Shown here one piece after another: positions 1,696 through 44,435 of a stretch of 64,000 bases of DNA (positions within the stretch are counted from its first letter, which is position 1; every line of letters begins with the position of its first letter). The stretch comes from Balanoglossus misakiensis (taxonomy: Eukaryota; Animalia; Hemichordata). Below the pieces are notes generated by a model that saw only the letters and a list, made by a program, of their open reading frames with translations, did no database searches and had not been told where the DNA came from. Both the position numbers and the translations under genes were made by a program. Where the stretch lies: contig CM082590.2 in the NCBI GenBank assembly GCA_040954595.2, forward strand, positions 4,464,001-4,528,000, given 5' to 3'.

Positions 1696-4600
1696 CTATT
1701 GTTTACTTGCCAGGTCACGAAAGTGAGTTTCACAAACCCAAATGACACCTGTGCCATATGCTATTGGCTGAAGGTGCCCAAACTGTCCATCTTCATCAGC
1801 TTTACCGAGAAAGCGTTGGAAATCTCTACGGTGTAGTGATGATTTCATCTTTTCTAACTCCTCCATGGACTTTTGTAGTGGCTCTCTGGATATGTCATTC
1901 AATTCTGGATACTTGCTTCCAAAATCATCCAAGAATTCTGACAGTAAGTTACCTGCTTTCCCAGCGATTGCAGGAACTGTTTTTGCTGCTGCAGCAGCAG
2001 TACCGGTTGGATCTGGAATGAACTTCAACAAACCACCTGCTACCTCGATGATCTTCAGAATTCTACAGATATGCGGGCCATACTTCTTGAGAAACCCATT
2101 CACATTTCTAACTCGATATCCTGGGAAATCGATGAAGTGCAACTGTTGTGGGTTTTCACAAAGCAAGTGGACTGCATAACCATCAGAGAAGTGGGAAAAC
2201 ACATACTGTGTCAGTTGACCCACAATTGATAGGCTTCCTGTGTTAACCGACAGCATAACAAAGTGACTTGGGCAGCGCATGTCTTTGGACATGTCAAATC
2301 TAGTCTGCGTAGAAATTGGTCTTTCTACTCCATGCCACTGTAGTAGGTCTAACCTGCTGTCAAATGTGTGACTGTGTGATTTGGGGATGGAGCAGATTAG
2401 ACTGTTTCCAACCTGTTTCATTTCTCCAATCTTAGGTTTACACTGAACGATACAGTGTGGGCATGATAGGGACTCTGGTACCTTCATATAAACATTCATG
2501 TACTGAGGGGTGTTGAGAACACCCTTCATGATGCCTTGCAGTTGTTGCAGGAGGCAACAAGCCTGTGGTCCCCTAACACTGACAAGGATATTGTTGCTAT
2601 GGTAAAGCAACTCAAAACGCACAGTGTGCACAATGCTCGCACTTCTGTCAAAACCACCAGACTTGGCACATTCATCACATGGTTCCAACCATTCTTTGCA
2701 AAGAAACACAATGTTATTTCGTGTGTATGAGGGATGACTCGACTCTGCAAACATGGCCTTCTCATTGACCGCTACTATTAGATCACAGAAAAACAGCGGA
2801 GGTAGAAAGCCAAATTCATACAGTTGACTAGCCTGTCTGACTTTGTCTTTAGGGTATGGGTACCAACTATCTTGTGATGGTTGACCAACAGGTAACTTAC
2901 AAGGAAACAGAAAACCCTTCTTTCCTTCAACTGATGTTTGTTCATCACCAAATGCAAAACAGATACGCAATGATGTAAAAACATCTAAAAGTGAGCCACG
3001 ATATTCACTTTCGATGTCTGCCCAGGCTTTTACCATGTTCTCCATTGACAGTATGCCATTGTTATCAATGAATTCCCCAGACCCATCTTCCCTTGCATAA
3101 GATATCAGTGTCTTCAATTTATTAGCCAGCCAATGGGGATCGAGTACTACCAGCACTTGCAGACCCTTGTCTCCAGTTGTAGATCTAGATGGATCAACCA
3201 CTATGTCACCCTGACTACACAGAAAACTGGTTGCATTATCTAATGTCACACCCTTTTCAATTCCAATGTTACCAGCAATCTCCTGGTATTCCTTGAAGGT
3301 CATTACTGGGTTTGGACGTTTCAGTCGTTCTGATTTTAAGTTCTCTCGCAAGAGATTCCACTTTTCTGGGATTTCTGGGTTTGTTGATTCCAAAAGATTA
3401 TCACAAACCTTTGTTAGTGCTTTTTGCAACTGTGCAATGCTGTTATTTCTCTTGGAAAATGTCTGCTTTGGGAATGGTTTCTTGCTGCAAACCTCAAAAT
3501 ACCCAACAATATGTGGACAAGAAGTCAGAGCTCTTCCTTCTGAAGGAGGCATTTGACTTTCATCAACCAATTCCTCATCACCATCAATACTCACATATCC
3601 AGCTAATCCCTTAAACATACTCTTTCTTTTCAGCACATCTTGGTTCTGACACACTAAGCAATCTTTGCGCATATTTTGCCGGTAGTGCATGCAATGTGTG
3701 TCTCTCATTTCAACAAGTGTATCATGAACCGTCTGCCAAATCAAGTCAAGCACAGCCCTGTTTAACATTGGCGCATCAGCATGGGTACCTACCAGAATAA
3801 CTGGAGAATTTGGAGCATATGCAAACACGGTCTGCAACCACAATTTCACTCTCCCTATTTGGTGTGAAGATGACACCTTGTTCATTGTTGAACCAATAGC
3901 AAATTTGCTGAGGTCAAAGGTGACCAAAAAGACACTGTCATCTGTAATAAACAGTGAATGTGATTCCAGAAAATCTACATCCCCAGCAAAATCAAACACG
4001 GTCAACTTAATATCTCTCTTTTTGAGCTTTATTTCCGAGATGTCTATGCCATCAGTTTTCTGCACGTCTGATGATTCACCCTTCAGCACTTTCACTAGAG
4101 TTGTTTTTCCTACACCTTCATGACCAACAAGAACTACCTTGACATTCCTATTAGGCAACGTGATTGTGTTCAGAAATTCCTTCAGGTAAGACAAGACAGC
4201 TTCCTTACCACCCCTTAAAATATCACGTGGTATGTTTATGGATGGATTTCCTTCTATGCTGATGTATTCACAATTAACAAGTTTGATCAACGATGGTGGT
4301 ATTCTCTTAATTGAATTGTTACTCACATCCAATTTTAATAAACCAGAAATTGAACCTATGTCCTCCTGCAGATCAGTCAAACCATTGTTATTTAAGAACA
4401 ACTGTTTAACACTCACACAAGCTATGTGTATTACTTTCATTTTACTGTCTGTTCGAGGTGATTTCTTCACTTGGAGGGTACAGTAACTTACATTCAGTAT
4501 TTCAAATGACCCAGAATGTTGGATAGACCATGGTACAGGGATCTTAGTATCAATGCAGGTGAAATACCTAGCTGAGGGCAAAAGCCAACCAGCCACTTTC

Positions 4601-4902
4601 TCGGGATCAAAAGACTTAACACTGATTAAAGTGAGACTTTCCGATACCTTTATGTTTCTTATCTCCTTGATGTCGACATTACATAACACTAATGAACTTA
4701 ATTCTCTACCCTTCATAAGTACATCTAACCTTGTTAACGCTTTGCTGTCACCAACTACAATTGCCTTTACTTTCTCGCCACTGTTGTAAACGGCTCTCAA
4801 CTTCTCATCCAAAGTGTCATCTGACAAGTTGAGGACTTCACGCACCGCATAAGATTTTTCAACTACGATTGCTCCGATCTGTTCAGCTTTGAGTAATTGT
4901 TT
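1696..4902 (-). CDS. Terminal exon (1068 aa + stop) of an ankyrin-LRR-Roc-COR ROCO-family GTPase: degenerate LRRs, Roc, COR and a Cys/His-containing C-terminal domain, no kinase
   Basis: ORF 1696-4932 contains LRR motifs (LFLNNNGLTDL, LLKLDVSNNSIKRIP) and Roc motifs GHEGVGKTT (P-loop), KTDGIDI, FDFAG, VGTHAD and EVCSK. COR-type motifs are IPEKW, VVLDPHWL and FLFPCKLP. The first 10 'residues' (MNLSDVFFFQ) are intron: gtgttcttttttcag|AAA is an acceptor at 4903/4902, phase 0. Confidence 0.93.
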   Translation of the reverse strand, partial: KQLLKAEQIGAIVVEKSYAVREVLNLSDDTLDEKLRAVYNSGEKVKAIVVGDSKALTRLDVLMKGRELSSLVLCNVDIKEIRNIKVSESLTLISVKSFDPEKVAGWLLPSARYFTCIDTKIPVPWSIQHSGSFEILNVSYCTLQVKKSPRTDSKMKVIHIACVSVKQLFLNNNGLTDLQEDIGSISGLLKLDVSNNSIKRIPPSLIKLVNCEYISIEGNPSINIPRDILRGGKEAVLSYLKEFLNTITLPNRNVKVVLVGHEGVGKTTLVKVLKGESSDVQKTDGIDISEIKLKKRDIKLTVFDFAGDVDFLESHSLFITDDSVFLVTFDLSKFAIGSTMNKVSSSHQIGRVKLWLQTVFAYAPNSPVILVGTHADAPMLNRAVLDLIWQTVHDTLVEMRDTHCMHYRQNMRKDCLVCQNQDVLKRKSMFKGLAGYVSIDGDEELVDESQMPPSEGRALTSCPHIVGYFEVCSKKPFPKQTFSKRNNSIAQLQKALTKVCDNLLESTNPEIPEKWNLLRENLKSERLKRPNPVMTFKEYQEIAGNIGIEKGVTLDNATSFLCSQGDIVVDPSRSTTGDKGLQVLVVLDPHWLANKLKTLISYAREDGSGEFIDNNGILSMENMVKAWADIESEYRGSLLDVFTSLRICFAFGDEQTSVEGKKGFLFPCKLPVGQPSQDSWYPYPKDKVRQASQLYEFGFLPPLFFCDLIVAVNEKAMFAESSHPSYTRNNIVFLCKEWLEPCDECAKSGGFDRSASIVHTVRFELLYHSNNILVSVRGPQACCLLQQLQGIMKGVLNTPQYMNVYMKVPESLSCPHCIVQCKPKIGEMKQVGNSLICSIPKSHSHTFDSRLDLLQWHGVERPISTQTRFDMSKDMRCPSHFVMLSVNTGSLSIVGQLTQYVFSHFSDGYAVHLLCENPQQLHFIDFPGYRVRNVNGFLKKYGPHICRILKIIEVAGGLLKFIPDPTGTAAAAAKTVPAIAGKAGNLLSEFLDDFGSKYPELNDISREPLQKSMEELEKMKSSLHRRDFQRFLGKADEDGQFGHLQPIAYGTGVIWVCETHFRDLASKQ

Positions 4903-7504
4903 CTGAAAAAAGAACACATCTGATAAATTCAACAGTTTTTAATACATGAAGGGCAGTATGCGACAAATTGAAGATTCATGAAAATTCCTTGTCAGGTGTG
5001 ACACATCTGGTCTTTCACTTAATATTAGACGTACTACTCTTTTATGCAATGTAATCACTCGTTTGACTAAGACGAAGTTCCTCTTTCTGCATAACTGGAC
5101 TAATACTCTCCTATGTAAGCATATACTCATACATAATGATATTAGTAGGTGGTGATTGCTACACATGTTCTGTGGCAAATTATTTTATTTCATTACAGGG
5201 TGCTGTGATGAAGTAAGATTTAATTCTATATTTCAGAGCTGGCTTTCTTGCATAAAATGGGGAATGAATACTTGTATTCATATATCTCATGATATTTTGA
5301 AAAACATTAATTATCATACAAGTACTTTGGCAAATTCATTTATTTATTGATGAGATAACATGATGTGATAAATAGGAAATCACCTTGGTAGATAACGATA
5401 TACGAGAACATGAGAGCAATGCCAGTATGCAACACAGCAAGTCATCTGTATAGACATCCTAAGGATTGAAAAAAAAAAGAAAATATAATTTATTGTGAAA
5501 TACATTAACGGGTAGACACATTATAAGAATTGCATCTAAGGGTAGATTATATGGAATATTTATAATAACATTTGTAACAGAGTTGTTATTATTAATTATT
5601 ATTATGGCAAAGAAGCAGTACTTAAGAACGGCTCTTAGGACAAAACACTTAGTGAACACTTTACCCTTCAGTGAAGAGCTTTATGTACAGTGTTTAAAAT
5701 CCCATTTGCTTTTCCGTCTGTAAATTTGTTTTCGTTCTCAATAAAACTGCGAATGTTTTGCTTCACGACAGTTTTTGCATTCAAATGTGCCACGGTACCT
5801 ATAGGTAATTCATTTACACTTCAGAGTAATGTACAATTACAATATACAGTCTGTTTTTCGTCAAAATTTGATTTTTTTCTATATATATTTTTCAAGATAA
5901 TTTTGCATACTTTCAAAAGTTGTCAAAATTTTGTTTCCTTGTAGTTTTTTCCTGTATTTTGATTTGTAGATTAAATGATAAGCCCGATGCAAACTCGTCC
6001 TCTCAACAATAGAGTAAAATATTTTGCCTTTGTTTTCATATTTATTAAACAACCACTTTTGTTACAACTGTAATACAATTTCCATAAACATGTTGAGAAA
6101 ATGTAGGTCGAGATAAGGAAACCAATCAGTTAGTTGCAGAGTGTAAATAACTGACTGGTTGAAAATATGATATAAAAAGCTTTAAAAACCTGTTCATCTC
6201 TTAAAAAGCAGGAGTGTGCGACAAATGCTACAATGGCAAACTAATAATCATAACCACATAAAAGCAAATGATAAAAATGATAACTTACGGTAATACAATT
6301 ATCAATCACCAATAAGTTAATGGTTTTAAGGAATTATTAATTATATTAAATGAAATCACGTTAGAGAAGTTATTTTTTCTGCTTTTATTGTGTGTTTAGT
6401 GTTAGTGTATAGCCAGTGCAGGATTCTCAATAAAGTCTACAGTGAAGCTAGTCAGGGGTTCACAATTGTCTTTTTAGCCAGAACTCTATTTATAACACTT
6501 AAAACTCGTATTTTTATGATGAAATTCTGAGAATCTGTGCCTTCTGGTTGCACAATTTCGAATGAACTGGTGGGCATTGGTTGCTAAGTTCTCATAGATA
6601 ATCCGACCGACATTTTTAGAAAATTGCACACATCCTCATTTTTAGCGGTATGAAAATTGCAGGGATCCTCAAACAGAGCGGTTACTATTTAAATTAGTTT
6701 TTGATCAAAATATTCAAATGTTTTATGTGATATGTTTTTGCTAAACGTTCAGGTGTTTCATAGTCAAATACTATTGGGTAAATGATAAAACTGTGTATTC
6801 ATATCATTATCATTTAGGAATTTACTGTTTTCTGAGATGGGTTGACAGAACAGATATGGCTCCACGTGGGTCTGCTTTCATATATATATATATATCATGT
6901 TCTGTATTCATATTAGCTTGTTATGGAAAGCGATCAGCCACTCCAGTTTTAAGTTCATAAACAAAAATAAACATACCGAATTTCACATTGGTAGCTATAT
7001 AGAAAGGGTTTGTAGAGTTTCCTGTTATCACAGGAAACTGCCAAGATTGAACTCATCACAGGTGACAGTAGTTTGAGTGGCCTGCATATTTTTGTTGGCT
7101 CACCATGGTAGATGGTAAACGTTATACTGCAGTGGACTGGCTCATTCGAATTGACTCGGTTGAATTGATACTTGTGGTGGACTGGCCTTAAACCGGTATG
7201 CTTGTGGTGTTACTGTGAAGTTCTTATTTCTTTCCTTGATGTCTGCGCCTGGGAATATGCCTCGATTATGTAGTAGCATCAGGTCAATGTGCTCAGGGCG
7301 CTTTACTGTTACTTCTGGTAAATTGACCTTATTTAGAACCTCAAAAGAAGCACCCATTTAAATGTCTGAACTTCTGAGGGCAATTTAAGAAGCAATGACA
7401 GAGTGCCTTGCTCAAAACACAAAACCACTGCCATGTCTAGACTCTCAGACACAATCTCCAGTCTAATCACCAGACAATTGTATCTCTAGCTTCTAAATAC
7501 ACAC

Positions 7505-7546
7505 CTTTAGCCATTCAAATGCAACATCGACAGGGGTTTTTCCATC
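7505..7546 (-). CDS. ROCO gene micro-exon 9, second ankyrin cap (DGKTPVDVAFEWLK)
   Basis: tatattttag| and AAG|gtgtgt, 42 nt, phase 0, G.TP.D.A motif. Joins in frame to KQLLKAEQ of the last exon. Confidence 0.72.
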
Positions 7547-8119
7547 CTAAAATATAAAAAAGGCAGATAAGAGTACATATCATTATTTTTTTATTTGAAA
7601 GAGAAGCTTTCTGTCAGGCCTAGAGAAATGGTAACCTGGACAACTTGAAGTCGCTCGGCATGCCTTAGCATCCAAGAGCTTTTAATTCTATGATGGAAAG
7701 GCACAGAAACACAATAGTTACTGCTTATAACCTAGTCTTGCTGACAACATCTAGAAACCTGCATCTATGTTTGGCTTAGGCCATGAGGGTTGACGGCCGC
7801 AATTTGTGGTTGGCAATTGTCGGGAAAACATACTTATGAAGTTTGAAAATTTACTGACATATGCAGCAAAATATCATAGATGACATATCGCATTACGGTG
7901 GTGTATCGGAATCAGTATTGCACATCTTCAGAAAACATCATACAGTCATGTATTGTGCTCTTACCCATTAGAACGTCTGTCCTACCAAGAATACCGTCTC
8001 TACGCATGTGTTGAAATGCAATGACAAGTATAAAGTGCATTGGTCAAAGACACAACCCCTTCATGTCTGGATTTGAACCCACAAATGTGTAGTCAACAGA
8101 CAATTGTTTTTCTACGCAC

Positions 8120-8158
8120 CTTTGAATCTGCTGCAAGATCCATTGGGGTTTTGCCAGA
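8120..8158 (-). CDS. ROCO gene micro-exon 8, ankyrin cap (SGKTPMDLAADSK)
   Basis: ttctttag| and AAG|gtgcgt, 39 nt, phase 0, G.TP.D.A terminal half-ankyrin motif. Confidence 0.7.
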
Positions 8159-8893
8159 CTAAAGAATTAAGAAGACAGATTAGACTGTTTTATATATTAT
8201 TTTGCACGACAATATGCCTCTCTTTAAATGAACAAAAATAAACGCCCAAAATAAATTACCAGTAGACAGAATTAATCTTAACTTTGTCGCGCAGTTCTCA
8301 TTGCATTGTGTACAATGACACACTTTTTTGGAGGGTCTGAGATAGATGACACTCCTTTATAACACTAATGTCCACCACTGAAATACAACTTTTTGTGAGG
8401 CAACCAAAAACATCTTTTATTTGAAGAATACTGCTCACATCAATTGTGGTATTTGCTGGCTGAACATTACAGATAATGGTATCACTCTAGATCATTGTTG
8501 TTAAGTGTGCAAATTCAATCATTTGAGCTTCAGATTGGTAAAGAATTGTGCCTTATTGTGCTGGCTGTAATCAGTTGCCATATTCGTTCAAGTTTTTGTA
8601 AAGGAAGATTTGCGAGGGGCGATAACCGACGACCTTTTTTGCGCGCGTTGGCCACTTTTTGGACATTAGGTACATGCATACCAATTTTCAAATCAATCTG
8701 ACCAGTGGTTGTTGAGTTTCTGAATTTTGACCAATTTCACATTTCCCCACCTAATTTGCATGTTTGGTAATGACAACTTCATTTGAACAAATTCTCACCA
8801 ACAGCCCGGCCTGCATCTACACACAAAATATCAAGGTGATACGCGCAGTGGTTTTTAAGTTTTTGATGTGGACGGACATACAGTCATACTTGC

Positions 8894-8992
8894 CTTGTTG
8901 TGTATGTTGACATCAACCTTGTATTTCAACAGTAACCTCACTATATTCACACGGTCATTCCTTACTGCAACATGTATAGGCGTGTCGCCTTC
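8894..8992 (-). CDS. ROCO gene exon 7, ankyrin repeat (EGDTPIHVAVRNDRVNIVRLLLKYKVDVNIHNK)
   Basis: tttgacag| acceptor, AAG|gcaagt GC donor, 99 nt. Confidence 0.85.
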
Positions 8993-9224
8993 CTGTCAAA
9001 TATGAAGACGCAATGTTTAATGGCCACATGCAGAATCTGTATTCATGTCTTTGTATCTGTTCTGAGGCATAACTTAATTACTGATTAAAGCTTCATACAA
9101 TTGCTCTCAAGCAATTGTTCAAAATGTGTATCAAACTTTGCTTACAAACTTGGGACAATTTACAAACCTCGCAAGCGCATACTGATTCAAATGATAAATA
9201 CAGATTACACACAATACTACTTGC

Positions 9225-9323
9225 CTCGTTTTGTATGTTGACATCAGCCTTGTATTCCAACAGTAACCTCACTATATTCACACGATCCCTGCTTGCAGCA
9301 CGATGCAAAGGAGTGTCGCCCTC
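9225..9323 (-). CDS. ROCO gene exon 6, ankyrin repeat (EGDTPLHRAASRDRVNIVRLLLEYKADVNIQNE)
   Basis: tttgacag| acceptor, GAG|gcaagt GC donor, 99 nt, near-identical to exon 5. Confidence 0.85.
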
Positions 9324-9610
9324 CTGTCAAAATGAAGACGCAATGTTTTAATGGCCACATGCAGAATCTGTGTTAATGTATTGGGCTCTCCAGTAGCTGA
9401 TATTTAGATCGGGATTTGTTGCGGGTCCTGAAAAAAGTCGTTGGATGATATTTTCGATGTGATACGGGAAATGAAGACTAGAACCTGAATGTACGATTCT
9501 TTAATAATATGGAACACATGGAACATGAGTGTCATTTGCAGAGTGGTGGAAATGACCTTTTTGTAATAGTGAAACTAATAATAAATCTACAAATAACCAC
9601 ATCTACTTGC

Positions 9611-9709
9611 CTTGTTTTGTATGTTGACATCAGCCTTGTATTCTAACAGTAACCTCACTATATTCACACGATCCCTGCTTGCAGCACGATGCAAAGGAGT
9701 GTTGCCCTC
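9611..9709 (-). CDS. ROCO gene exon 5, ankyrin repeat (EGNTPLHRAASRDRVNIVRLLLEYKADVNIQNK)
   Basis: tttgacag| acceptor, AAG|gcaagt GC donor, 99 nt. Confidence 0.85.
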
Positions 9710-10269
9710 CTGTCAAAATGAAGACGCAATGTTTTAATGGCCACATGCAGAATCTGTGTTAACGTATTGGGCTCTCCATTAGCTTATATTTAGATCGGGA
9801 TTTGTTGCGGGTCCTGAAAAATGTGGTTGGATGATATTTTCGATGTGATTAGGGAAATGAAGACTACAACGTGAATGCACGATTCTTTAATAATATTGAA
9901 CACATGGAACATGAGTGTTATTGGCAGAGTGGTGGAAATGGCCTCATTTTAATGGTAAAACTAATAATAAATTTACAGATATCCACGGCCAGCTTCCAGT
10001 GGCCACATCGGTCTGAGAACAAACTTCTAGACAACGTTTTGATGCAACAAATTCACTGATAATTCAATTTACTTCATTTTGTTATAAAAACTATTTTATA
10101 TCGACGGGGGTTATTGCAGGCAGCTTTCAGTGGTCAGAACAAACTTTTAGACACCGTTTTGATGGAATGAATGATGCCAATTCACTGATAATTAAATTAC
10201 TTTATTTGGTCATAAAAACTATTTTATATCGACGATAACAATTTCTTCGTTCTCTCTGAGGCTTTCCTC

Positions 10270-10710
10270 TCTTTCAACGGAAGAGGGAGATGAACTATGC
10301 AGCTATGATCACAAGAAGCAAAAATTTGCCCCTCTTCGTTGATGGCATAAAACAATGCAAACACACTCCCTGTGATCCGAGACTTTCATCGCTTTATGAA
10401 GTCGCACCGTCGGCTGACGTTGAGCCTTTTAGCCTAAAATAGCGCCACCAACGACAAGAGGAGATGATATAAGCAGCCAGGGTCAGAAGAAACTTTGATT
10501 TGCCCGTCATCATTGATGGCATAATACAATGCAAACACATTCCCCATGATCCGAAGCTTTCACTTCACATTATGTCTCACTAAAGGGAGACGGATAGCCT
10601 TTTAACCTCAAATAGCGCCACCAACGGCAAAGGGAGATGCACTATAAGCAGGATCACACGGAGCTTAAAATTGACCATCATCGTAGGTGGCGTAATGAAT
10701 GCACACATGG
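10270..10710. repeat. Degenerate intronic tandem repeat, about 175-bp unit, about 2.5 copies
   Basis: Recurring caacg..agggagatg, ttgatggcataa.acaatgcaaacaca and aaatagcgccaccaacg. Confidence 0.65.
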
Positions 10711-11453
10711 CCTGTGACAGAGGGACTATGCCTGTGACCTGACATTCGAGAATAGTAAATACTTTAAAACAACTCGATTGTGCGCCAAATACAAATGAGA
10801 AACTTTTAAACTGGCATGGTTAAAAGGTACAAGGTCACCATGTGCAATTAAGTTGCATCTAGTGAGTTCAGTTTGGTACGTTGTAAACTATTCACTCTGT
10901 CATTGAACCACATGACAGACCTCCATGACCCGTGAAGCAAAATGTTCGACTAAATTTCACGATCGCTTCACTCTTGTAAACTACAGGTGCAGAAAAAATC
11001 GCGTCTTTCTTAAACATCACTAAAGTCTGTATCGCAAATGTCACATGAAGATTTCATGACATAAAATCTTGCAACATTCGTCGTGTCCAAAATGTACAAG
11101 TTGGACCTTGATACTTTTTACAGCAAACTGTCTTTTAATCAATATGTGCTTTACTCTTTCTGCGACAACTGCAAGAAATATAAATTATTGAATCTGACAA
11201 GTTCGAAATTTCCAGCAGAATGAAAGAATCTAAAGTGTATTCAAATGCAATTGGAAATTTATGAGTGATCTGCGTGGGTATTTATCGTTTTTTATTCTAG
11301 CAATACCCTTGTAGCAATAAAATATTTGACGACAATGTGGCGATCAAAATCGCAAAGATTTTCATTTTATTCATATATGTGTGTTATTGATAATAAACCG
11401 TGTCACCTGCTGTGTGAGTGTAGAATAGAATTGGTGTGATTACAGTAACTTAC

Positions 11454-11552
11454 ATTATCCTGCACATCGACGCTGGCATTGGATTGCAGTAGAAGTTTCA
11501 CCACGTCACCATGACCTCTGGCTGCTGCATAGTGTAATGGTGCCCGACCACC
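11454..11552 (-). CDS. ROCO gene exon 4, ankyrin repeat (GGRAPLHYAAARGHGDVVKLLLQSNASVDVQDN)
   Basis: cccacag| and |gtaagt, 99 nt, canonical ankyrin consensus. Absent from the ORF track. Confidence 0.92.
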
Positions 11553-12027
11553 CTGTGGGAATACAACAAAAATGTGTCACTGAAAATCCCTGACTATAAC
11601 CGTCAAAGGGAACACGTTATGTTTTATTAAACGCCCCCTGTAGCACACATTCTGAAACATTCATGTTTGAGATGGCACAACATGTTTTGCCAACACTTTT
11701 TTTTTTGGCAAAACGTAATGGACATAAATGCATGATGTGGTGATATGGCAGTGTTCTTTGAGGGTACATTAACATCACAGGTATTCTTTTATTTAAGATT
11801 TATAACACGCGTGTGTTGTTTTCATTTGAAAATATCATCTGTACAATACCCTCAAACTGACAATGATCTAAATATTATAAAAGCCTAAACAGTAGTTTCA
11901 TTACCCCTTAAAAGAGCATTGGAATTAGCCAATCAAAGAACGCCAATTATGAATCAAAGGTAAGAAATATGCAGAACCACTATTGACATTCAAATGATTA
12001 TGGTGGACTTCAGCCAGACAATGTTTT

Positions 12028-12601
12028 TAGTCTCGCTAGCCAGACCTCTCTCTCTCTGTCATTCGACGGCATAGCCACATGAAGTGCGCCACGAGCAGCG
12101 AGGCCGGGAGAGTTGAGTGTCAAGGACGGCCTCGCCGCTTGTGGCGCACTTCGTGTGCCTGGTCGCGCGTCGACGTAGTCTGGTTCCCTGCCCCAATCCC
12201 ACCGCTGCCTCCGCTACGCTGAAGGGAAAGGGTCAGGCACGGCCTATTGTAAACATGGCTCTCATTGGTCAATACATACGAATATTAAGTTGTTAAGTTG
12301 ATAAGTTGTTGTAAGATACTCATTTCCCGTTCTCTCCTTCACCTCCATGAATGTTTATCATTCGATTTCAAACTTTACAAGAAACGAAACAAAAAAATAA
12401 ACTGCCTGGATGAATCTTGACTGGCGTACTGACATTGGAGGCATCCATCTTGTTTATGATCACGTGGTCTTCCCAGCTTTCTGGTCATGAAATCGGGCCG
12501 TACCTGACCCCTTTCCCTTTAGCGTAGCGCAGCCAGCGGTGGGATTGGGGCAGGGAACCAGACTAGCGTCGACGGAAAGTGAGGTCTGGCCAGTGAGAAT
12601 G
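12028..12601. mobile_element. Older TAG-terminated non-autonomous DNA transposon hosting a nested element
   Basis: Left end tagtctcgctagccagacctc is an imperfect inverted match to right end gaggtctggccagtgagaatg. There is an internal hairpin at 12076-12155. Confidence 0.6.
12176..12565. mobile_element. Nested 390-bp MITE with TAG...CTA ends and a 9-bp TSD
   Basis: TIR of about 70 bp: tagtctggttccctgccccaatcccaccgctg / cagcggtgggattggggcagggaaccagacta. GCGTCGACG lies on both flanks. Confidence 0.85.
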
Positions 12602-13275
12602 ACGTTTCTTTAGAGTCAGTTTCATGACGGTAACTACATGATGACGGTTTATGAAAGAATCTCACTTTGTAGATTTTCGGTTGAAAAGTTTGGTTTTTTT
12701 TCCGTTGAAAAGTGACCCTTCTGGGTGGCACATACCCGTACACATTCCTATGGGAGTACCCCCGGCCTGTTGTGCAGGATATATGGCACCCCAACATTTT
12801 ACAATTATTTATTTTCGGAGCTTTATTTCGCTTCGCCATTGTTACTGACAGCTATTACACTACAAGTTGTCACCGTGGATGTAGCAGTAATTAATGGTTA
12901 GGTCCGTAACTTTCCGTTCAAAAAGTTAACTATTGGTAGATTATTGATCGAAAAATCTAATTACGAATTTCGATATGAACACCCTGATCCCAACCACTCG
13001 AATATTTCTATATAGTGGTATGATATTCAAAAGTAAATTGGTTGGTCTCAAAAGAGATAAGAATTTAACTTGGCCGCAGGTATAGCCACGGTCCAATAAC
13101 TCTCCCTCAAACTCTTTCATACTGTTCATAATCCTATTAATGTGTGTCGGTTTATTGCAGTAACACTAGTTTAGTGATTGACATCCCGAAGGTCGTCAGC
13201 ACTACAAAATATAAGTACAGTGTCATCTTTTTGGCCGTTCGGGCTATTGGTGAGTGAGCATGTAAAGCCACTTAC

Positions 13276-13374
13276 CTCATCTTTAGCAATGACGTCAGCT
13301 CCATGGTCGATCAACAGTTGTGCCGCTTCCAGTTTATTTTCCCTGGCTGCTACATGCAATGCTGTCCATCCAGA
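13276..13374 (-). CDS. ROCO gene exon 3, ankyrin repeat (SGWTALHVAARENKLEAAQLLIDHGADVIAKDE)
   Basis: tttcag| and |gtaagt, exactly 99 nt (33 aa), canonical G.TALH.AA...LL..GADV. Confidence 0.92.
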
Positions 13375-13696
13375 CTGAAATTGACAAATTCATTTGAATT
13401 ACAACAAGCTATGTTCCAATTTTGGACTTGTAAGGTGGCATGGCTATCATTTCACTGGAATCGATTTGTAATTGTAAGTGTTGACTGATATTATGAGTTA
13501 AACGTGTGTAGCATCTATAGTTGTTTCAGACCAAAACACTCTATTGTTTCAGAGAACATTTATAACGTGTCCTATAGATTTTTCTAACAAGTGTAACACT
13601 ATTACATTCTAATATAATGTAGCGCACTATACATGTTTATGCAGACTCATAGGTGCAACAGGTCTTAATATCATTTCATAAATTACATTGATATGT

Positions 13697-13978
13697 TCAA
13701 ATTTTCAATCACACCAAGTACTCTAACAGATAAACATGACGGACGTGATACACCAGACACATACAATCCTAGTTTTTCTCTGTTGATGTAAGTTGAAGTC
13801 TGGCCCGCTATGAACCCAACATTGGCATGGGACATCTTGAAATTTTCAATCACACTAAGTACTCTAACAGATAAACATGGCGGACGTGATACACCAGACA
13901 CATACAATCCTCGTGTTTCTCTGTTGATGTAAGTTTAGGCCAAGCCCTCTATGAACCCAACATTGGTATGGGACATCA
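13697..13978. repeat. 141-bp tandem duplication in intron 2
   Basis: aattttcaatcacac at 13700 and 13841; both copies end in gaacccaacattgg.atgggacatc. Confidence 0.85.
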
Positions 13979-15190
13979 ATGAAATATTGATTGTTGCTAG
14001 GAAACAACAGAAAAAGAATTGTGGAAACAAGTCTGGACATTTCTCTCGAATTTTTCTTTTTTAATCGTACACATGTTAGTATCCATTGAATAGAACCGAA
14101 ATCTCTTTCTAGGTTTTATGCAATTTTAAACTCTAAATATTTGGGTTCACTGGATGAGTAAATTAAATTAAGAAACAGTACAATCATTAAATATGGGAAA
14201 AGGTCACATTTTGCACTTATGCAAGTAATATATTTTATGTATTGGATCCTAAGTAAATCGTTTTATGACGTATCTGTCATAAGTGACGACTTTTCTCTAA
14301 ATTTAAGGTTTTGATCAGGTGGATTGCCTCACATCAACTCTAAATCAAAAAATATGTTTTGCGAAAAACCGATATCAAAATGCAACTGAATCGGCAAAAT
14401 ATTCTCAATTGTTAACATTTCAAAACCAATTAAAGTACTTTAGTAGAAGTGATCATCAATTTCACTTCGTTTAAATCTTTTTTTCTCCAACATACTTTGT
14501 GTTTTCCTTGCACAACAAGTGATAGTAACCTAAGTATGTTAGCCCTATTTTCAAAAGAGATATTAATTTCTAAACGTCACATGACAATTTAGCTTTGGAA
14601 AAATATTTTTTTCTTTACTGGTACAGAAAAATACAGCGAGATAAATACTATGGTTTGTTGCTTACATGAGGGATTGGGACAAGAGATTACCGCCTGGGGG
14701 CAGGCTACATCCCTCGGTCGGCAACAGAGTTGACATTCGCTTGACCTTTCCTCAAGTTGATCTCAAGATATTCGGAAGATTGGATGCTTTTGATGGAGCT
14801 ATGCATGAATGGTCTACGGGATAGTTGAAATTCGTCGAATCGAGGCGAGGAGAAATAATTGATTTTGGGAAAATGACTTCCCACCTTGGTTACCCCTCTC
14901 TTTAAAATGTCAAATAGCGTATGTTATGTCTTGATTACTTTATTATTATTATAATGTAGATTTTTAATTACTCTGAGAAAAACAACATGGAAACATTTTT
15001 TGTGTGTGTTAGTGAGTACAGACATGAAATATAAAAGACTGGAAATCTTCTGAATTGAATTCAACTAGCATATGAAACACTGCAAAGGTTTTTAGTCCAT
15101 CAATGAAACTCAAGGACATTTCGTTTGCTCTATATCGTATTAGTTAATACTGCGGCATGACGTTGTAAAAGTGTGAGGGTGAATTCTTAC

Positions 15191-15307
15191 CCAGGTGAAG
15201 CCTGTACTCTTTTCACGGTATACACCCTTTGCATTGACATTGTGCCCATCAGCTATCAACGATTGAATCCTTGCAACATCACCATCCCGAGCAGCATCAA
15301 TCAGATC
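15191..15307 (-). CDS. ROCO gene exon 2, N-terminal ankyrin-like repeat (DLIDAARDGDVARIQSLIADGHNVNAKGVYREKSTGFTW)
   Basis: gttatag| acceptor, |gtaaga donor, 117 nt, open frame, ankyrin-like pattern L.AA..G...I..L...G.NVN. Confidence 0.85.
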
Positions 15308-15607
15308 CTATAACATTCAATGAAATATGCAATTGTTAATTTTTTCAATGTATTCAGTTAAATATATATCAAATGTTTCAGATCCTTGATTCTGAAAAAC
15401 CAAACACATAAAGACTGACACAGTGATAGCTATAAAGATATATCTTGACAATAAACTGCCACATCGCATTGAAATATTACTGAATAAATACAAACATGTT
15501 TCACTCCAGAAAGTACTAGATAATGGAAGTGCCCGGATGAGCGCTGAGCACTCTGCGCAACAATCTCAAGGATACACTGAATAAATGGAATGAAAGTATC
15601 ACCATTA

Positions 15608-16405
15608 GGCTGCATTCACAAACACCTCTGGAGGGGGGGGGGGGACGGGAGAATTCAATTTTTTTACCGTTAATTTTCACATGCCCCCCTCAACAACCCG
15701 AAATATTTTCAAATCCCCCCTTCTGAACTGCTTAAATTTTCAAATCCCCCCCCCATTCTCTTTCACACAGCAAAACACATCACCTATTTATCTTGTAAAA
15801 AAGAAAAACAGCGCTCCCATGAAAAGAATTTGAAACTGATGTTTCCCCTTATCAGTGAGTTTTAAAACTGAACATTGTTTTATTTTTTAAGTATTATATT
15901 CTGTGTTGGGAGACATTGTAAACCGAGAAGTGAAGGGGTTGGGGTTGGGAGGGGGTGTCCCCCTCCCACGTAAGAAAATTTTACAAAATACAGAGTTCAA
16001 AACTGCATTTTAATGAACCCAAAAGCAAATTAACTCAACTACCGGTATGTTGGGAAGGACAAATTTAACCTTCGGCGCTCAAAGTTAACATGGGGGGAGG
16101 GGGGGGGGCCAAGTCCCCTGACCTGGGACACTAGATAAACCAGTGAATGATTTAAAGGTGTTGATGAATGACGGGGGTGGGGGTGGGAGGGGGTGTCCCC
16201 CTCCCACATGAGAAAAATTTGTTTTATGAAGGGTTCAAAACTGCATTTTTGTGGACTCAAAATAAATATTTAGTCCTCAAAATTTTCAAGTCCCCCCCTT
16301 TACAGTCCCTAAATTATTTCAAATCCCCCCTTACATACCCTCAATTTTTTCAAATCCCCCCTCAATTCTCCTGCCCCCCCTCCAGAGGTGTTTGTGAATG
16401 CAGCC
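15608..16405. mobile_element. 798-bp MITE, PIF/Harbinger-like (TTA TSD)
   Basis: TIR ggctgcattcacaaacacctctggagggggg / cccccctccagaggtgtttgtgaatgcagcc, TTA on both flanks, and internal tttcaaatccccc subrepeats. Confidence 0.85.
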
Positions 16406-16660
16406 TTAAATCCATGAAACCCCTGTGTGGGCAAATTATTGGGTAGAGACAGAAACTCATGGGTCATGCAACGGCTTTGTTTCTGGTTGTTGATATGCCT
16501 CCCCCAAAAGTACCTTTGTCTATTGGATAGGGTTTGCATACATTCAAATAGCAAGCACAAGGTAACATGAATGGGCAACCAGTCCTGTTTTTCAGAAATT
16601 GTACTTACGCACATTTATAGTTTAATACTATCAATAATTGCAATATGTGGAACACAGTAT

Positions 16661-17010
16661 ACACATGACTGACAATGGGGGCAACAGTGTATTTTGATGA
16701 CCGAGGGCACTGCTAGTCACAACTAAACCAGTCTTGTTTTCCCGAGAGCATAGCCCGAGGGAAAACAGACTGTTTTGGTGTGACTGGTAGTCCTGAGGTC
16801 ATCAAAAATACACTGTTGCCCGAATATGTCAGTCATCATGTGTTTTGTAACACACCAAACATGGAATTATATCAAGACGGGGCAACAGTACCGGGCAGAA
16901 ACTGATCGAAATGATGCCCTGAGGAACAGTTCGAAATGACTAAGGTCACGTGACGGCGTATTGACGAATCACGATCGAGGGTTCGCTGCATGGTGTGTAA
17001 CAATAAGGGT
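16661..17010. mobile_element. Palindromic non-autonomous repeat, possibly Crypton-like
   Basis: Imperfect hairpin of about 180 bp (16661-16843) centred on tttcccgagagcatagcccgagggaaaa, plus a subterminal inverted match at about 16847 and 16991. The family assignment is inference. Confidence 0.5.
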
Positions 17011-17805
17011 TTTTGACCTGTAGAGCTGAATACAGAGTCATCAATGGTCAGCATCGGTAGCCACTGCATCTCAGACAATCATGAAGGAAGAATGTCGACA
17101 AATCCGTAAGAATCACTCAAATGTTTCCTACTTGGTGGTTGTTAGTGTGTACAATGTAATCCCAAATATTAGTTATCATTCTACATGTTATAATATGGAC
17201 ATTTATGCGATGCATCAAACCCCCCGGCAGCGATTAACCAACCCACCAGGGCTACAATTATTGCAGCTACTCATGGGGAATTAATAATTATCCACAACCC
17301 CTTATGACCAACACTGTGCACCATGCCTGCGTCACCCTGGATGAACTCATTTCGGGTCAAAGGTTATAATTTGATTTGGCGTCAATCTGACTGCCCCATA
17401 TATAGACACATTGCTAAACATGGTTACAAAGTAACACAGACATGGATTTCAATGGGTGTTTTATCTAAAGCTAGAACTCGCTCATAAAATTGTGTTTACT
17501 TAGGACTTGCTCAACCGGTAAAATTATTTTTGAAAAATATCGTCCAATGCAGACTTGGACTTAGCAGTTTTTGTCGCCAGTTGTAGTGAACGGAAAACAT
17601 TGTGATTAGTGTGACTTTTTTGTCAACTGGGTAATTGTTTATTTATGAATGCACTATCTAGCAATACACACAAACACTATATTTTCCGTGTGTCGGGCAA
17701 GCTGACCCGTTGAAAAATAATACATGTAAACCTATAAGGCACCGACTAGCGCCACAAGTCTAAACGTAACCGTCATATGTTTCGTGACGAAAATGTCTGG
17801 TTAAA

Positions 17806-18659
17806 CACGGTTACTAGAAGAAGACGGTTAGGAAACTCTATTGCTCGGAAGGTGTGAACGAGGTGTTAGCTAGGAGAGTACATGTCCGAACCGCTATGTG
17901 GGGTTGTATTGGGGAACGTAGCTAATTTTTGAACCCCTTCATCTGCCCTTTTTCGTCAGAGTACAGCGCCACTTTTTTTTGTACGAGTTCCATATAGGCT
18001 TATGGAGTGCACGGTCATAGTCTGTTGGGCTTGCGACACTCTACCATTGTTTCTTGGGTGGTTAACTTAAAATCCAGATTCAAATAGCGTCGAATTTTGA
18101 ACCCCTAGAATTCAACCCTGATGGTCGCATTTCTGTTTTTTTTTAATATATTTAGATATTTTACACCTTTTTGTATTGCATGGGCTATTTCGTTTATTCC
18201 AATTGGAATATTTCGTTGAGATTGCATACCCATTTCGATACAGTCGTTAACATTATCGATATAGCCTTTGGCGGCCATCTTGTTTGTTTTGGTTCGCATC
18301 GAATCTCTAGGGCACAGTCAAGACAAGGAATGTATGGCTTCATCATGTCCTTGAAAGTTCAAAATTGTCATAAATGTGCTGTGACTTTATAAATTATCCA
18401 CTCTCTGTTCTGTTTTCCTCAAATCTGGTGGTATACGTACTGTGCGTGCAAGCAATTCCGTAAACATGAGTATGGTTTGCTTTGGATTGTAGGGGTAATG
18501 ACGTCATTTTGACCGAGCGGTCAGTTATTCTGTCTGTTTATTCATGTGGCCAGGCTCGTTAGCACCTGATATCTTTCGTTTACACTAAGTGTTTACCGAG
18601 GCGAGCATCTAACAATGGAGAAAAAATAGTTTCCTAACCGTCTTCTTCTAGTAACCGTG
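17806..18659. mobile_element. 854-bp non-autonomous DNA transposon with CAC...GTG ends and a 7-bp TSD (possibly P-superfamily)
   Basis: Perfect TIR cacggttactagaagaagacggttaggaaact / agtttcctaaccgtcttcttctagtaaccgtg, with GGTTAAA on both flanks. Confidence 0.88.
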
Positions 18660-18827
18660 GGTTAAATTTACGTGCATGGGGTTGAAGGGAGAAATTTTGA
18701 ACAACAGTCCTCAGTCCACAAAACAAACAAAATATAAACCACTCATAAAAACAGTTGTCGTACGCGTCACTGCCAGACTTGTTGCATTTGGTGTGAAATG
18801 TCAGTTGTTATAGTTCAGTTCACTTAC

Positions 18828-18857
18828 CTGTGGATACTTATCTTCTCCAGAAGCCAT
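18828..18857 (-). CDS. ROCO gene exon 1 (MASGEDKYPQ)
   Basis: Minus strand reads aaccATGG (good Kozak context) ... CAG|gtaagtg. The exon is 30 nt, phase 0, and in frame with the next exon. Confidence 0.7.
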
Positions 18858-19098: not shown

Positions 19099-21970
19099 AG
19101 CAGAATTCCTAGATTTCTGTTTAAATCACTAAACTAGTTGGCACATTAAACAACGATTTGATTATTTATGTTTTATGACAGTGCGAGCAGTGGAATGAAG
19201 TGGCCTATTCGCACTTCACAAGCTTAAGTACAGGACATAGTCTCGCTTTGCAAACTCTTCTCGCTTCACTAGTTCGCCACTGTCGGTGTGACAATGCGAG
19301 GAGCGAAGCCAAAAGTGTCTGGGGAGAACACAGTCGCATGAGGAGTGTGTGTTGTGTTTATACGACGATCACCTATGACACTTTTCTGTGTCATAGGCGA
19401 TCGCCATGTTATACAATTCAACCCCCGTGCGACTGTGGGGGAGAATCACTGCATTCCATTGTGATGACGTATACACAAGACAGGCAATGAATTCAACTAT
19501 TACAAAGGACCCTTGACCTAGTTGGCTTTCAGTCAATGCGTGTCGTGCCAGACAGACCGTGACAGGCCCCGTCGTAGTTGACAGCCCAGTGCAGTATAAG
19601 ATATTGTATACATGTACTATGCTGTCAACTACAGCAGTGCCTGTAATCATGTGATTGTGAGTGAATATCACTGCACGTGTACAACTACATAGACTATCGA
19701 GGATTTTGTTTCGTTTGTCAGTTGTGGGTGATTTCCTGTTAGTGCTGAGAAATTTAGTATTTCCCGTCTTTGAAAATTGGCATATTTTTCCAATATGTAG
19801 CATTATAGCCAAATACTACATTCTTGCCAACTGTGTCTTTAAATTTTGAATTGTTGCATGAGAGATTGAACATCAGAATATATTATATAAAAATGAACCC
19901 ACTCTCATACAATCAATTTTAAGTGGGCAATGACCTTTAATGTACTGTGCATTAAAATAAAAGATAGAATTCATAAGATATACAATTGGTAAAGCTTTTC
20001 TCAAATATATTTCAAGTGACCATCCAAAATAATCTATAAACTCAAAAATCTCTGGTAGAATGAAGCTGAAGCAAGTGCTGGCAATTAATGATTTATCTCT
20101 TATATTCTTTTTTTTTACTCATTTCATCACCATGGTTTAGCTCAAATGTATTGTCTTAATGGGACTTCTATAGAGAGAAATGGAGGTGAAAGGGTAAAGG
20201 TAAAAATTACAACAGTAAAAACCATGCTTGATTTTTTGATATAGCTGTTTAGATAATTTTACCATAGGAAAACTATACCTTGAGGTGTGCAAAAATGCTG
20301 ACTGAAAACGTAGGATGGGAACACTTTTTTCACTCTTCATGCTTAATTCAAAATATACAAGAAATATGTGGTTTGACAGGTCCCATACAAAATGAAGAGC
20401 GGAATATAAAGTAAGGGTACCTGGAGGAACGATAGGCGATATAATCTCTACCACGTTGTTTCATGAGTCACTGGACTGACCCATCAGGAGACTAAACTGG
20501 CCAGTTTATTACTTTTTGCCTTTAAAATACATCAACATTTTTCAAGATTAGAAGTTCCGGTACTCATAGCTAACATCACTTGTTGATGTGGTCAGTGGGG
20601 AAAACATTGTAAATTATGTATTTTGATGGTTTGCTGTAACTCGGATTACAGCAATTATTAATCAGCAGTCAGAATCTTTCAGCAAAAAAACTTCTGGAAA
20701 AAAGTTTGCTGCCAGAGTGAAAAGAAATTAAGTGGGCCAGCCCTAACTATAAAATTCAAGACAAATTGGGGAATTGAAGAGGCTTATCAATCTAGAATTT
20801 GTAAAGTGAGACATATTTGAAGCCCCATGAGCTGCCAAATTCCACATTCACAATAAAATACAAAAAATGTTTTCCCTATATCCCCATTACAATTTGCTCA
20901 ATCAAGGCACACTACTTGCATACCACAATAGTTGTGTACTCTTTGCATGGAGGCAGATTAAACAGGCATGGCACCCGTTTAATATATCACTTGTCCAAAT
21001 TGCAACATCCATCCACAATATGGCATTGACAAGATGTTCATTTATACCTAACAGTTTAAGCTTATTAAGATGGACCAATCCAAAGTTGGAAAGTAAAATC
21101 ATGAAAATAATGCAACAAGTGGCAGCTCTTGAGGATTTAAACAAGGGCAATTGACACATGACCCACAACACACGCACTGATAAGAACAGCAGTATAAGAC
21201 CCACGTTGACAAACAATTTTAGGCAAACATTGACCAGTTGTCATAAAACTTTCGGTCAATTTTATTGCTCTTATCAATAGAGAATGGCCTTCACCTGCAT
21301 CAGATTACATGTTGGAGTCAGTGAGACTCCATGTGTACCAGTGTCAAGTGTGTAATTGTTATCAGCACTGCTCAACTGCATTCGTACTTTTAAATTAAAA
21401 CTTAAACTTTGACTATTGTTCCTATTAGCCAACATCGATTGAATTGTTGTTCATATCAGCGCGCCCACACTCACTCATGTACTATGTAAAGAAGTGTAAA
21501 TGACATCCCTGTCCACACAACACCACTATAAAAGTCATAAGTTTTACCTTCCATTCACGAGGTTTCTGTGACTATTCTTTAGGTATTGTTGTTTTTGACA
21601 TTTCGATGGTTTCGTTTGAAGTTTATTGGTATGTACAGGTACGTATCAGAAGCAGTTTACTTTGGGTCGTAAAGATTAAATACTGTTTGTTCTATTGGCT
21701 TTACGCGTATAGACTTTGACGGAAACCACTCACCACACTTAATATATAGCACAGGGTGTTTGTTTAGTCGGCAGAAAAACACTCCACCACGATCAAGTAG
21801 CTACAAACATTTTTTAACCAGATCGTGATAAAATCGGAATTATCGTGAGCTACAGTTTATACATCTGACCAGGTTTCAAATCGTTATCATTGGTAATTAT
21901 GTAAACAAAGAACATAGCAACCACAACCAAGACAGAAAAACGGCCGAAAAATTCGATTCTTAATCCATTA

Positions 21971-44030: not shown

Positions 44031-44435
44031 TAGTCTAGTATCTAGCCGTATTTTGTCCGCTTTGCTTCCAAAACTAACGTCTAGCCTCACTCATGCCACT
44101 GGCCCAGTAAAACCCCATACCCCTTGCTGGGAGTTGTGATGTAACTAGCGTCTCTCTGAAGTCAATCAGAGACTTTGTTGTTCTAATGATTGGACAAAGG
44201 ATATACATATGCGTAATTAAGGATGGGTAACATTTTGAATTCACATGAGAGATGCATTCACTATAACCTTACACCCGATCACCATTGTTCAGTTCATGTG
44301 AATGACTTCAGAGTGAAGCTAGTGATATCACAATTCCCAGCAAGGGGTATGGGGTTTTATTAGGCCAATGGCATGGTTGAAGCTAGGCGTTGTTTTGGAA
44401 GCAAAGCGGACAAAATACGGCTAAATACTAGACTA
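44031..44435. mobile_element. TAG-terminated MITE of about 405 bp with TIRs of about 120 bp and a degenerate 9-bp TSD
   Basis: tagtctagtatctagccgtattttgtccgctttgcttccaaaac / gttttggaagcaaagcggacaaaatacggctaaatactagacta. Flanks are atgtcagaa / gtgtctgcc. Confidence 0.8.

What the first reader, a model, noticed from the sequence alone, without database searches (positions are those of the whole stretch)
7505..18857. Modular one-exon-one-ankyrin array fused to a ROCO GTPase: a candidate variable immune receptor
Seen: every exon upstream of the large last exon is phase 0-0, and five are exactly 99 nt, one ankyrin repeat each. Any of them can be skipped, duplicated or swapped without a frameshift, and exons 5-7 show that duplication has happened recently. 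Established: ROCO genes of the brown alga Ectocarpus have one-LRR-per-exon arrays proposed to diversify by exon shuffling, and 99-nt ankyrin exons occur in ordinary ankyrin genes too. Inference: this may be an animal, ankyrin-based version of a diversifying sensor-GTPase switch-effector receptor. The ORF track misses most of this structure.
Basis: partly seen in the sequence, partly recalled or inferred. Interest (0 to 1): 0.8.

Follow-up and report, generated by a model that had tools for sequence, protein, structure and literature searches.

The report
Acorn-worm-type ankyrin ROCO GTPase, no kinase
This predicted 11-exon animal gene, likely from an acorn worm, joins one-repeat ankyrin exons (three of them recent copies) to a kinase-less LRRK-like GTPase, but the same exon layout is old and stable in distant relatives and signs of an immune diversification system are weak here, so it is likely an ordinary signalling switch whose binding end changes slowly by exon duplication.

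Summary
Observation confirmed, with one correction. The minus-strand exons at 18857-7505 are all phase 0, five are 99-nt ankyrin repeats, and exons 5-7 are recent copies with GC donors. The last exon (4902-1696) encodes LRR-Roc-COR plus about 190 residues with no fold match; no kinase or death domain was found. The gene belongs to an animal-wide kinase-less ROCO subfamily, with closest relatives in acorn worms (41-53% identity). Three distant relatives have the same 99-nt phase-0 exon as a single copy, so the layout is ancestral rather than a sign of shuffling. Of the Ectocarpus hallmarks, spare or inverted cassettes are absent from the window and whole-exon dN/dS is 0.56-0.71. Changes do concentrate on the binding face (6 of 7 positions), but not significantly above the silent rate, and silent changes cluster there too. 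No RNA evidence was available. Unchecked notes of this scan describe stronger cases (8-14 hypervariable ankyrin exons, Roc-COR-death) elsewhere in this genome. Verdict: new member of a known kind; the immune-receptor reading stays possible (about 0.27).

The parts
18828..18857 (-). Exon 1, start codon, 10 aa
   Evidence: accATGG context; donor CAG|gtaagt is the only 9/9 site among 1356
15191..15307 (-). Exon 2, 117 nt, N-terminal capping ankyrin repeat with an extended loop
   Evidence: (weak profile score)
13276..13374 (-). Exon 3, 99 nt, one ankyrin repeat
   Evidence: 39.6 bits
11454..11552 (-). Exon 4, 99 nt, one ankyrin repeat
   Evidence: 41.3 bits
9611..9709 (-). Exon 5, 99 nt, ankyrin repeat, GC donor; part of a 386-bp tandem duplication with exon 6
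9225..9323 (-). Exon 6, 99 nt, ankyrin repeat, GC donor; 3 nt different from exon 5
8894..8992 (-). Exon 7, 99 nt, ankyrin repeat, GC donor; older copy whose differences cluster in codons 1-13
8120..8158 (-). Exon 8, 39 nt, first half of a terminal ankyrin repeat; duplicate of exon 9, likely alternative or redundant
7590..7687 (-). Possible alternative last exon or relic: strong acceptor, in-frame stop after one codon when joined to exon 8, AATAAA at 7595 (end approximate)
   Evidence: acceptor rank 7 of 733; frames and poly(A)-like signal; use not shown
7505..7546 (-). Exon 9, 42 nt, first half of the terminal ankyrin repeat
5384..5458 (-).
   Evidence: acceptor rank 2 of 733; aligns with Ptychodera and Glandiceps homologues
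1696..4902 (-). Exon 11, 1068 codons plus stop: LRR region (Pfam LRR_8 at about 4410-4243), Roc GTPase (4140-3775), COR-A (3369-2938), COR-B-like and cysteine-rich part, and a C-terminal domain of about 190 aa without a fold match

Best explanation
This is a predicted 11-exon gene for a kinase-less ANK-LRR-Roc-COR (ROCO) protein of an old animal subfamily, likely an intracellular GTP-controlled signalling switch whose ankyrin array likely changes length slowly by ordinary tandem exon duplication rather than by a dedicated diversification system. Shown from sequence: exon chain, domain order, P-loop and other G motifs, recent duplication of exons 5-7 and 8/9, family membership. Inferred from LRRK1/2 and bacterial Roco proteins: the ankyrin and LRR repeats bind a partner or recruit the protein to a site, GTP binding in Roc shifts COR-mediated self-association, and the conserved C-terminal domain passes the signal on. 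Inferred for the exons: ancestral phase-0 introns between repeats let unequal crossing-over add or drop a repeat in frame, and short conversion tracts patch neighbouring copies; the likely main product is exons 1-7, 9, 10, 11 (1321 aa). A role in stress, cell-death or defence signalling is plausible (death-effector domains on two acorn-worm paralogues) but untested.
For: Pfam Roc E=1.7e-15, COR-A 6.4e-16, LRR_8 below its cut-off, no kinase or death domain among 19 families listed. AlphaFold model of exon 11 (pLDDT 83.1, pTM 0.84) matches LRRK1, LRRK2 and C. tepidum Roco (Foldseek E=2.8e-28 to 8.5e-22). Closest named relatives are from Ptychodera (52, 53%), Glandiceps (49%) and Saccoglossus (41%); further named relatives from Hydractinia, Actinia, Tubulanus and Branchiostoma; these form one group (SH-aLRT 99) apart from kinase-bearing ROCOs in a quick tree of 44 of 50 rows. 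Of 29 related loci fetched, L002, L003 and L005 have a single 99-nt phase-0 ankyrin exon in the same register followed by a 93-nt exon and the big exon; L002 even has the same AACAAG|gcaagt GC donor; L001 and L018 show only the 93-nt exon; L003 and L005 differ at 23 nt but only 4 conservative residues in the 99-nt exon. L007 carries ankyrin repeats inside one uninterrupted 1380-codon frame. No extra full ankyrin exon on either strand of the 64 kb window. Whole-exon dN/dS 0.56-0.71 for the three pairs among exons 5-7, none distinguishable from 1. Silent differences between exons 6 and 7 are 4.5 of 9.0 sites in codons 1-13 against 0 of 13.3 in codons 14-33 (p about 0.02), the pattern of a patch exchange. 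Ankyrin repeat gain and loss is described as common in animal proteins (PMC5100051, passages).
Against: Residue changes among exons 5-7 fall on 6 of 7 binding-face positions out of 10 variable positions (hypergeometric p=0.0012; 5 of 6 with the narrower set, p=0.0054). Binding-face replacements exceed a pooled silent-plus-intron rate for exons 6 vs 7 (p=0.004), although that pool is confounded by the mosaic pattern and by splice-site constraint. Near-identical repeats are rare in animal ANK/TPR/WD proteins (0.8%) and enriched in fungal NLRs (PMC4986451, passages); exons 5-7 sit at that paper's threshold (about 90% to their consensus by my hand count, over 99 rather than 100 residues). Acorn-worm paralogues vary in ankyrin number and carry DED or Rho-like N-termini. 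Unchecked scan notes report hypervariable ankyrin-cassette Roc-COR-death genes in this genome.
Confidence: 0.6

Rival explanations
1. The gene is a diversifying intracellular immune sensor: ankyrin exons are duplicated, converted and selected at the binding face to change ligand specificity, as proposed for brown-algal LRR-ROCOs and fungal ankyrin NLRs, and Roc-COR relays recognition to the C-terminal domain.
For: Recent copies 5-7 and 8/9; binding-face enrichment; a divergent patch covering the hairpin and helix 1 of exon 7 (12 of 16 differences in 39 nt, permutation p=0.026), which could itself be a diversifying conversion; variable N-termini including DED in acorn-worm paralogues; unchecked notes on stronger loci in the same genome.
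Against: Binding-face dN is not significantly above dS (p=0.135-0.50). Those positions are the highest-entropy ones in natural ankyrins generally (PMC4308713, passages). Only three similar repeats; no spare or inverted cassettes. Only 3 Ptychodera, 3 Saccoglossus (one partial) and 1 Glandiceps proteins were found, against 9-47 genes per brown alga (PMC11378527). Same exon layout is static in distant relatives.
Confidence: 0.27
2. The locus mainly makes an ankyrin-only product (exons 1-8 spliced to the acceptor at 7687, stop, poly(A) near 7595, about 228 aa), and the ROCO read-through via exons 9-11 is a minor form or a separate unit. A short form could act as a decoy or regulator.
For: Strong acceptor at 7687 (rank 7 of 733), followed by a cap-helix-like stretch behind an in-frame stop and an AATAAA; exon 8 lowers the junction score against homologues when placed before exon 9.
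Against: Exon 9 begins mid-array and needs upstream ankyrin exons; homologues have ankyrin repeats directly before the same junction; the stop would cut off the capping helix; AATAAA is common in this AT-rich DNA.
Confidence: 0.08
3. The gene is relaxing or decaying, and the duplications are neutral accidents in a repeat-rich region.
For: dN/dS among the copies is not significantly below 1; redundant exon 8 and a stop-bearing relic at 7687; repeat-dense neighbourhood.
Against: A 1068-codon open last exon with intact G motifs and conserved cysteines, and all ten introns with usable splice sites.
Confidence: 0.05

Closest known systems
Uncharacterised acorn-worm ROCO models: Ptychodera XP_070549552.1, XP_070550673.1, XP_070549695.1; Glandiceps XP_077978787.1; Saccoglossus XP_006813508.1, XP_077870021.1
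   Same: Same LRR-Roc-COR-C-terminal body (41-53% identity for four of them, 43% for XP_077870021.1, 24% for the Ptychodera DED form), ankyrin repeats at the same junction, one clade in the quick tree.
   Different: N-termini differ: 8 ankyrins, 1-3 detected ankyrins, DED plus ankyrins, Rho-like plus ankyrin. Their exon structures could not be read. The automatic name 'serine/threonine kinase roco' is not backed by a kinase domain in the window's gene.
LRRK1 / LRRK2
   Same: ANK-LRR-Roc-COR order (domain order from search-listing abstracts); best sequence and fold matches among solved structures.
   Different: No kinase and no WD40; an unmatched C-terminal domain instead; LRR-Roc-COR sits in one 3.2-kb exon.
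Brown-algal LRR-ROCO candidate receptors (Zambounis 2012, PMC3341825; Teng 2024, PMC11378527)
   Same: Kinase-less ROCO with one repeat per equal-length phase-0 exon and recent exon duplication.
   Different: The modular repeats are ankyrins and the LRRs here are not modular; no intronic or inverted spare exons; small family; positive selection and alternative splicing not shown.
Fungal NACHT-ankyrin NLRs (Dyrka 2014, PMC4986451)
   Same: Near-identical ankyrin repeats varying on the concave face next to a nucleotide switch.
   Different: STAND ATPase rather than Roc-COR; repeats C-terminal; repeat-number polymorphism and positive selection were shown there and are untested or not significant here.
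DAPK1-type ANK-Roc-COR-death proteins (architecture from listing abstracts, and recall)
   Same: Ankyrin array upstream of Roc-COR.
   Different: This gene has LRRs between ankyrins and Roc, and no death-domain hit by Pfam or fold search.

Membership tests
ROCO family | Roc GTPase followed by COR | tested here: met
   Pfam Roc and COR-A above cut-off; fold matches to LRRK1/2 and C. tepidum Roco
ROCO family | Intact G motifs | tested here: met
   GHEGVGKTT, KTDGI, FDFAG, GTHAD present in exon 11; their reading as G1-G4 is recalled
ROCO family | GTP hydrolysis and COR-dependent self-association | not testable with these tools
   needs biochemistry
LRRK1/LRRK2 | Kinase domain after COR | tested here: not met
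   no kinase hit; the frame ends about 410 residues after COR-A
DAPK1-type ANK-Roc-COR-death | C-terminal death domain | tested here: inconclusive
   no Pfam death hit; fold searches of the last 321 residues gave no clear match to anything
Brown-algal-type exon-shuffling ROCO | One repeat per equal-length phase-0 exon | tested here: met
   five 99-nt exons; ankyrin rather than LRR
Brown-algal-type exon-shuffling ROCO | Intronic, inverted or inactivated spare repeat exons | tested here: not met
   none above shuffle level on either strand of the window; only the half-repeat exon 8 is possibly redundant
Brown-algal-type exon-shuffling ROCO | Diversifying selection on binding-face codons | tested here: inconclusive
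   enrichment on the binding face, but not significantly above silent rate; three sequences only
Brown-algal-type exon-shuffling ROCO | Large family with high birth and death and exon exchange between loci | tested here: inconclusive
   1-3 paralogues found per related species; own genome not held; no look-alike DNA of exons 5-6 in other indexed windows (which only sees about 90% identity)
Brown-algal-type exon-shuffling ROCO | Alternative splicing of repeat exons | not testable with these tools
   no RNA run was listed

The most novel reading that the evidence does not exclude
Acorn worms run an ankyrin-cassette diversification system across more than one ROCO subfamily, and this ANK-LRR-Roc-COR gene is an early-stage recruit: an ancestral single 99-nt exon has been amplified, its binding-face third is being swapped by patch conversion, and an alternative last exon yields an ankyrin-only decoy, with an unmatched C-terminal domain as the output.
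Probability: 0.22. Interest if true: 0.7.

Novelty: new member of a known kind. Interest (0 to 1): 0.36.

Why it matters
As it stands, it adds a corrected gene model to an old, little-described kinase-less ROCO subfamily found from cnidarians to amphioxus and acorn worms, with swappable N-termini (ankyrin, DED, Rho-like) and a conserved C-terminal domain that found no match among solved structures. It also gives a control: one-ankyrin-per-exon, phase-0 structure is ancestral in this family, so it cannot by itself be read as evidence of an immune diversification system. If the immune reading held, it would show how an ordinary modular gene is recruited into a variable intracellular receptor system in an invertebrate deuterostome.

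Tried and rejected
RNA evidence: no RNA holder was listed for window 1700-9800; this is a blank, not evidence. The window's genome is not held, so paralogues and alleles in this species could not be counted. Ankyrin exons hidden in the 1737-bp upstream array or elsewhere in the window: none. Fold of the C-terminal 321 residues (pLDDT 79.6): Foldseek no match at E<=0.001; VIA-align best Z 4.3, with a weak match of residues 10-109 to C. tepidum COR (Z 3.8, rmsd 4.1, 83 aligned); ESM Atlas gave one lead at 0.77 to a bacterial COR cluster. None shows that the fold is new. Search for the source of the exon-6 repeat: 21 generic ankyrin proteins among 22 candidates, 43-61% identity, none named as acorn worm; uninformative. 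Search for shorter relatives: 2 hits, no near-identical transcript or allele. Rfam on the window: 0 hits. Literature for a citable statement that ordinary ankyrin genes use 99-nt exons: searches and passages of PMC1553488, PMC5135030, PMC1266365 gave none; Street 2006 was seen only as a reference entry, so that claim rests on recall and on the loci. Searches listed no paper on this subfamily or on ankyrin-exon ROCOs in animals; the library lacks most subscription journals and I opened no supplements (Teng's figure of about forty animal domain combinations may include this architecture). PMC6321704 had no Roc mention. PMC8683736 passages gave no position numbers. The tree is the quick version; 6 of 50 rows were dropped for lack of a P-loop anchor and no clade test was run.
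Full report
Observation. The gene lies on the minus strand. They score 39.6-51.4 bits on an ankyrin profile against at most 9.3 in 20 shuffled windows (the profile included these exons). A splice-signal scan without protein information recovered 7 of 9 internal exons and one extra candidate. Exons 5 and 6 form a 386-bp tandem duplication and differ at 3 of 99 nt; exon 7 differs at 16-17 nt. All three use GC donors.

Corrections to the model. A 75-nt phase-0 exon at 5458-5384 was missed. It has the second-best acceptor of 733 and supplies the second helix of the last repeat. The junction 7-9-10-11 gave the best score of five exon-7 models against P0002, P0003 and P0005, tied for P0004 and was second for P0010. 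Exons 8 and 9 are two copies of one half-repeat exon with homologous flanking intron, so the likely main protein skips one of them (1321 aa without exon 8). Inside intron 8 a strong acceptor at 7687 would give a stop after one codon and is followed by AATAAA at 7595. It may be an alternative last exon for an ankyrin-only product or a relic; this is unresolved.

What the last exon encodes. Exon 11 (4902-1696) is one open frame of 1068 codons with LRR, Roc and COR-A and recognisable G motifs. The AlphaFold model (pLDDT 83.1) matches LRRK1, LRRK2 and bacterial Roco structures, as does the sequence. No kinase or death domain was found. The last 321 residues fold confidently, resemble COR-B weakly at their start, and have no clear match for the final 190 or so residues.

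Family. The closest proteins are uncharacterised acorn-worm models at 41-53% identity, so the window is likely from an acorn worm (inference). More distant members come from Hydractinia, Actinia, Tubulanus, Branchiostoma and unnamed assemblies. A quick tree of the Roc-COR region (44 of 50 rows) puts the window next to two Ptychodera proteins (SH-aLRT 91), then Glandiceps (95), within an acorn-worm group (87) inside a kinase-less animal group (99). N-termini vary: 8 ankyrins in one Saccoglossus protein, at least 17 in Tubulanus, DED plus ankyrins in one Ptychodera and one Saccoglossus protein, Rho-like plus ankyrin in Glandiceps and Actinia. Some of these are automatic gene models and may be incomplete or over-joined, but the Rho-like fusion is seen in one uninterrupted genomic frame in L007.

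Is the exon layout special? Of 29 related loci, three with enough upstream DNA (L002, L003, L005; in the tree they or their proteins group with the nemertean protein) show an N-cap exon, one 99-nt phase-0 ankyrin exon in the same register as the window's, one 93-nt exon and the large exon. The N-cap exon end was verified by script for L002 and L003 and read by eye for L005. L002 has the same AACAAG|gcaagt GC donor as exons 5 and 7. L003 and L005 differ at 23 nt but only four conservative residues in that exon. So the layout predates the window's duplications and can stay fixed. This is the main result against reading modularity itself as a diversification device.

Tests of the Ectocarpus model. 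Zambounis 2012 (PMC3341825; I saw the abstract, passages, outline and part 1 of the Discussion) and Teng 2024 (PMC11378527; parts 1-2 of 6 and passages) rest the immune reading on spare intronic or inverted exons, large families, diversifying selection and alternative splicing, and note that modular LRR-kinase genes show no shuffling. Here: no spare or inverted full ankyrin exon in 64 kb; 1-3 paralogues found per related species (limited by clustering and candidate caps); whole-exon dN/dS 0.56-0.71, not distinguishable from 1; splicing untestable. In favour: 6 of 7 binding-face positions vary among 10 variable positions (p=0.0012), but binding-face replacements do not significantly exceed the silent rate (p=0.135-0.50). 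The position set is recalled from DARPin design and mapped by me; PMC4308713 (passages) lists such positions as the high-entropy ones of natural ankyrins, so enrichment is expected under relaxed constraint too. Differences between exons 6 and 7 cluster in codons 1-13 (12 of 16, p=0.026) and so do silent ones (4.5 of 9.0 against 0 of 13.3 sites), which points to a patch exchange. A pooled silent-plus-intron comparison gives p=0.004 for excess binding-face change but is confounded by that mosaic. Dyrka 2014 (PMC4986451, passages) reports that near-identical repeats are rare in animals and enriched in fungal NLRs; exons 5-7 lie at that threshold, a modest point for the rival.

Other findings of this scan. 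Five unchecked notes from the same genome describe ANK-Roc-COR-death genes with hypervariable single-ankyrin exons, 8 to 14 where a number is given. I could not check them. They raise the prior that acorn worms diversify ankyrin cassettes, but they concern a different architecture, and no look-alike of this gene's protein or of exons 5-6 was indexed. The idea has thus been reported before on other DNA, with apparently stronger evidence than this locus gives.

Mechanism and verdict. Most likely (0.6) a kinase-less LRRK-like switch: repeats bind a partner, the Roc nucleotide state changes COR-mediated association, and the conserved C-terminal domain signals; these steps are inferred from related proteins. 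The ankyrin array likely grows by in-frame tandem duplication at ancestral introns. A diversifying immune sensor remains possible (0.27). Novelty: new member of the ROCO family in a little-described subfamily; searches listed no paper on it. Interest 0.36.

Noticed in passing
window 23822-40784: Tandem array of a 1737-bp unit, nine full copies plus one partial, 95.9-100% identical to one reference copy; no Rfam hit, no ankyrin exon; holds a purine-rich stretch that looks like decayed coding sequence.
   Followed up: partly
window 21966-23826 and 54565-56166: Two copies (about 95% identical over 1.58 kb) of an element with about 37-bp terminal inverted repeats starting GGCCAAAG, likely a non-autonomous DNA transposon.
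   Followed up: partly
window 41000-59600: Mosaic of interspersed repeats, including 1.3-2.1 kb segments repeated at 90-95% identity (44697-46827, 48754-50828, 56162-57400).
   Followed up: no
window 9610, 9224, 8893 (-) and L002:637: GC-AG introns after three copied ankyrin exons, and the same AACAAG|gcaagt junction in a distant relative; shared ancestry or convergence is not resolved.
   Followed up: partly
window 7590-7687 (-): Strong acceptor with an immediate in-frame stop, a cap-helix-like stretch behind it and AATAAA; possible ankyrin-only isoform or relic exon.
   Followed up: partly
L006, L007; proteins P0003, P0203, P0041: Members of this subfamily with an N-terminal Rho-like GTPase in front of ANK-LRR-Roc-COR, i.e. 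two GTPase domains in one chain; uninterrupted genomic frame in L007.
   Followed up: partly
window 1699-2270 (-): Conserved C-terminal domain with invariant Cys, His and Trp residues and a Gly/Ala-rich helical hairpin, confidently modelled but without a clear structural match.
   Followed up: partly
window 12168-12574, 15607-16406, 17806-18659: Inverted-repeat pairs in introns 1 and 3, likely small transposons; the extra exon candidate 16422-16339 overlaps one of them.
   Followed up: no
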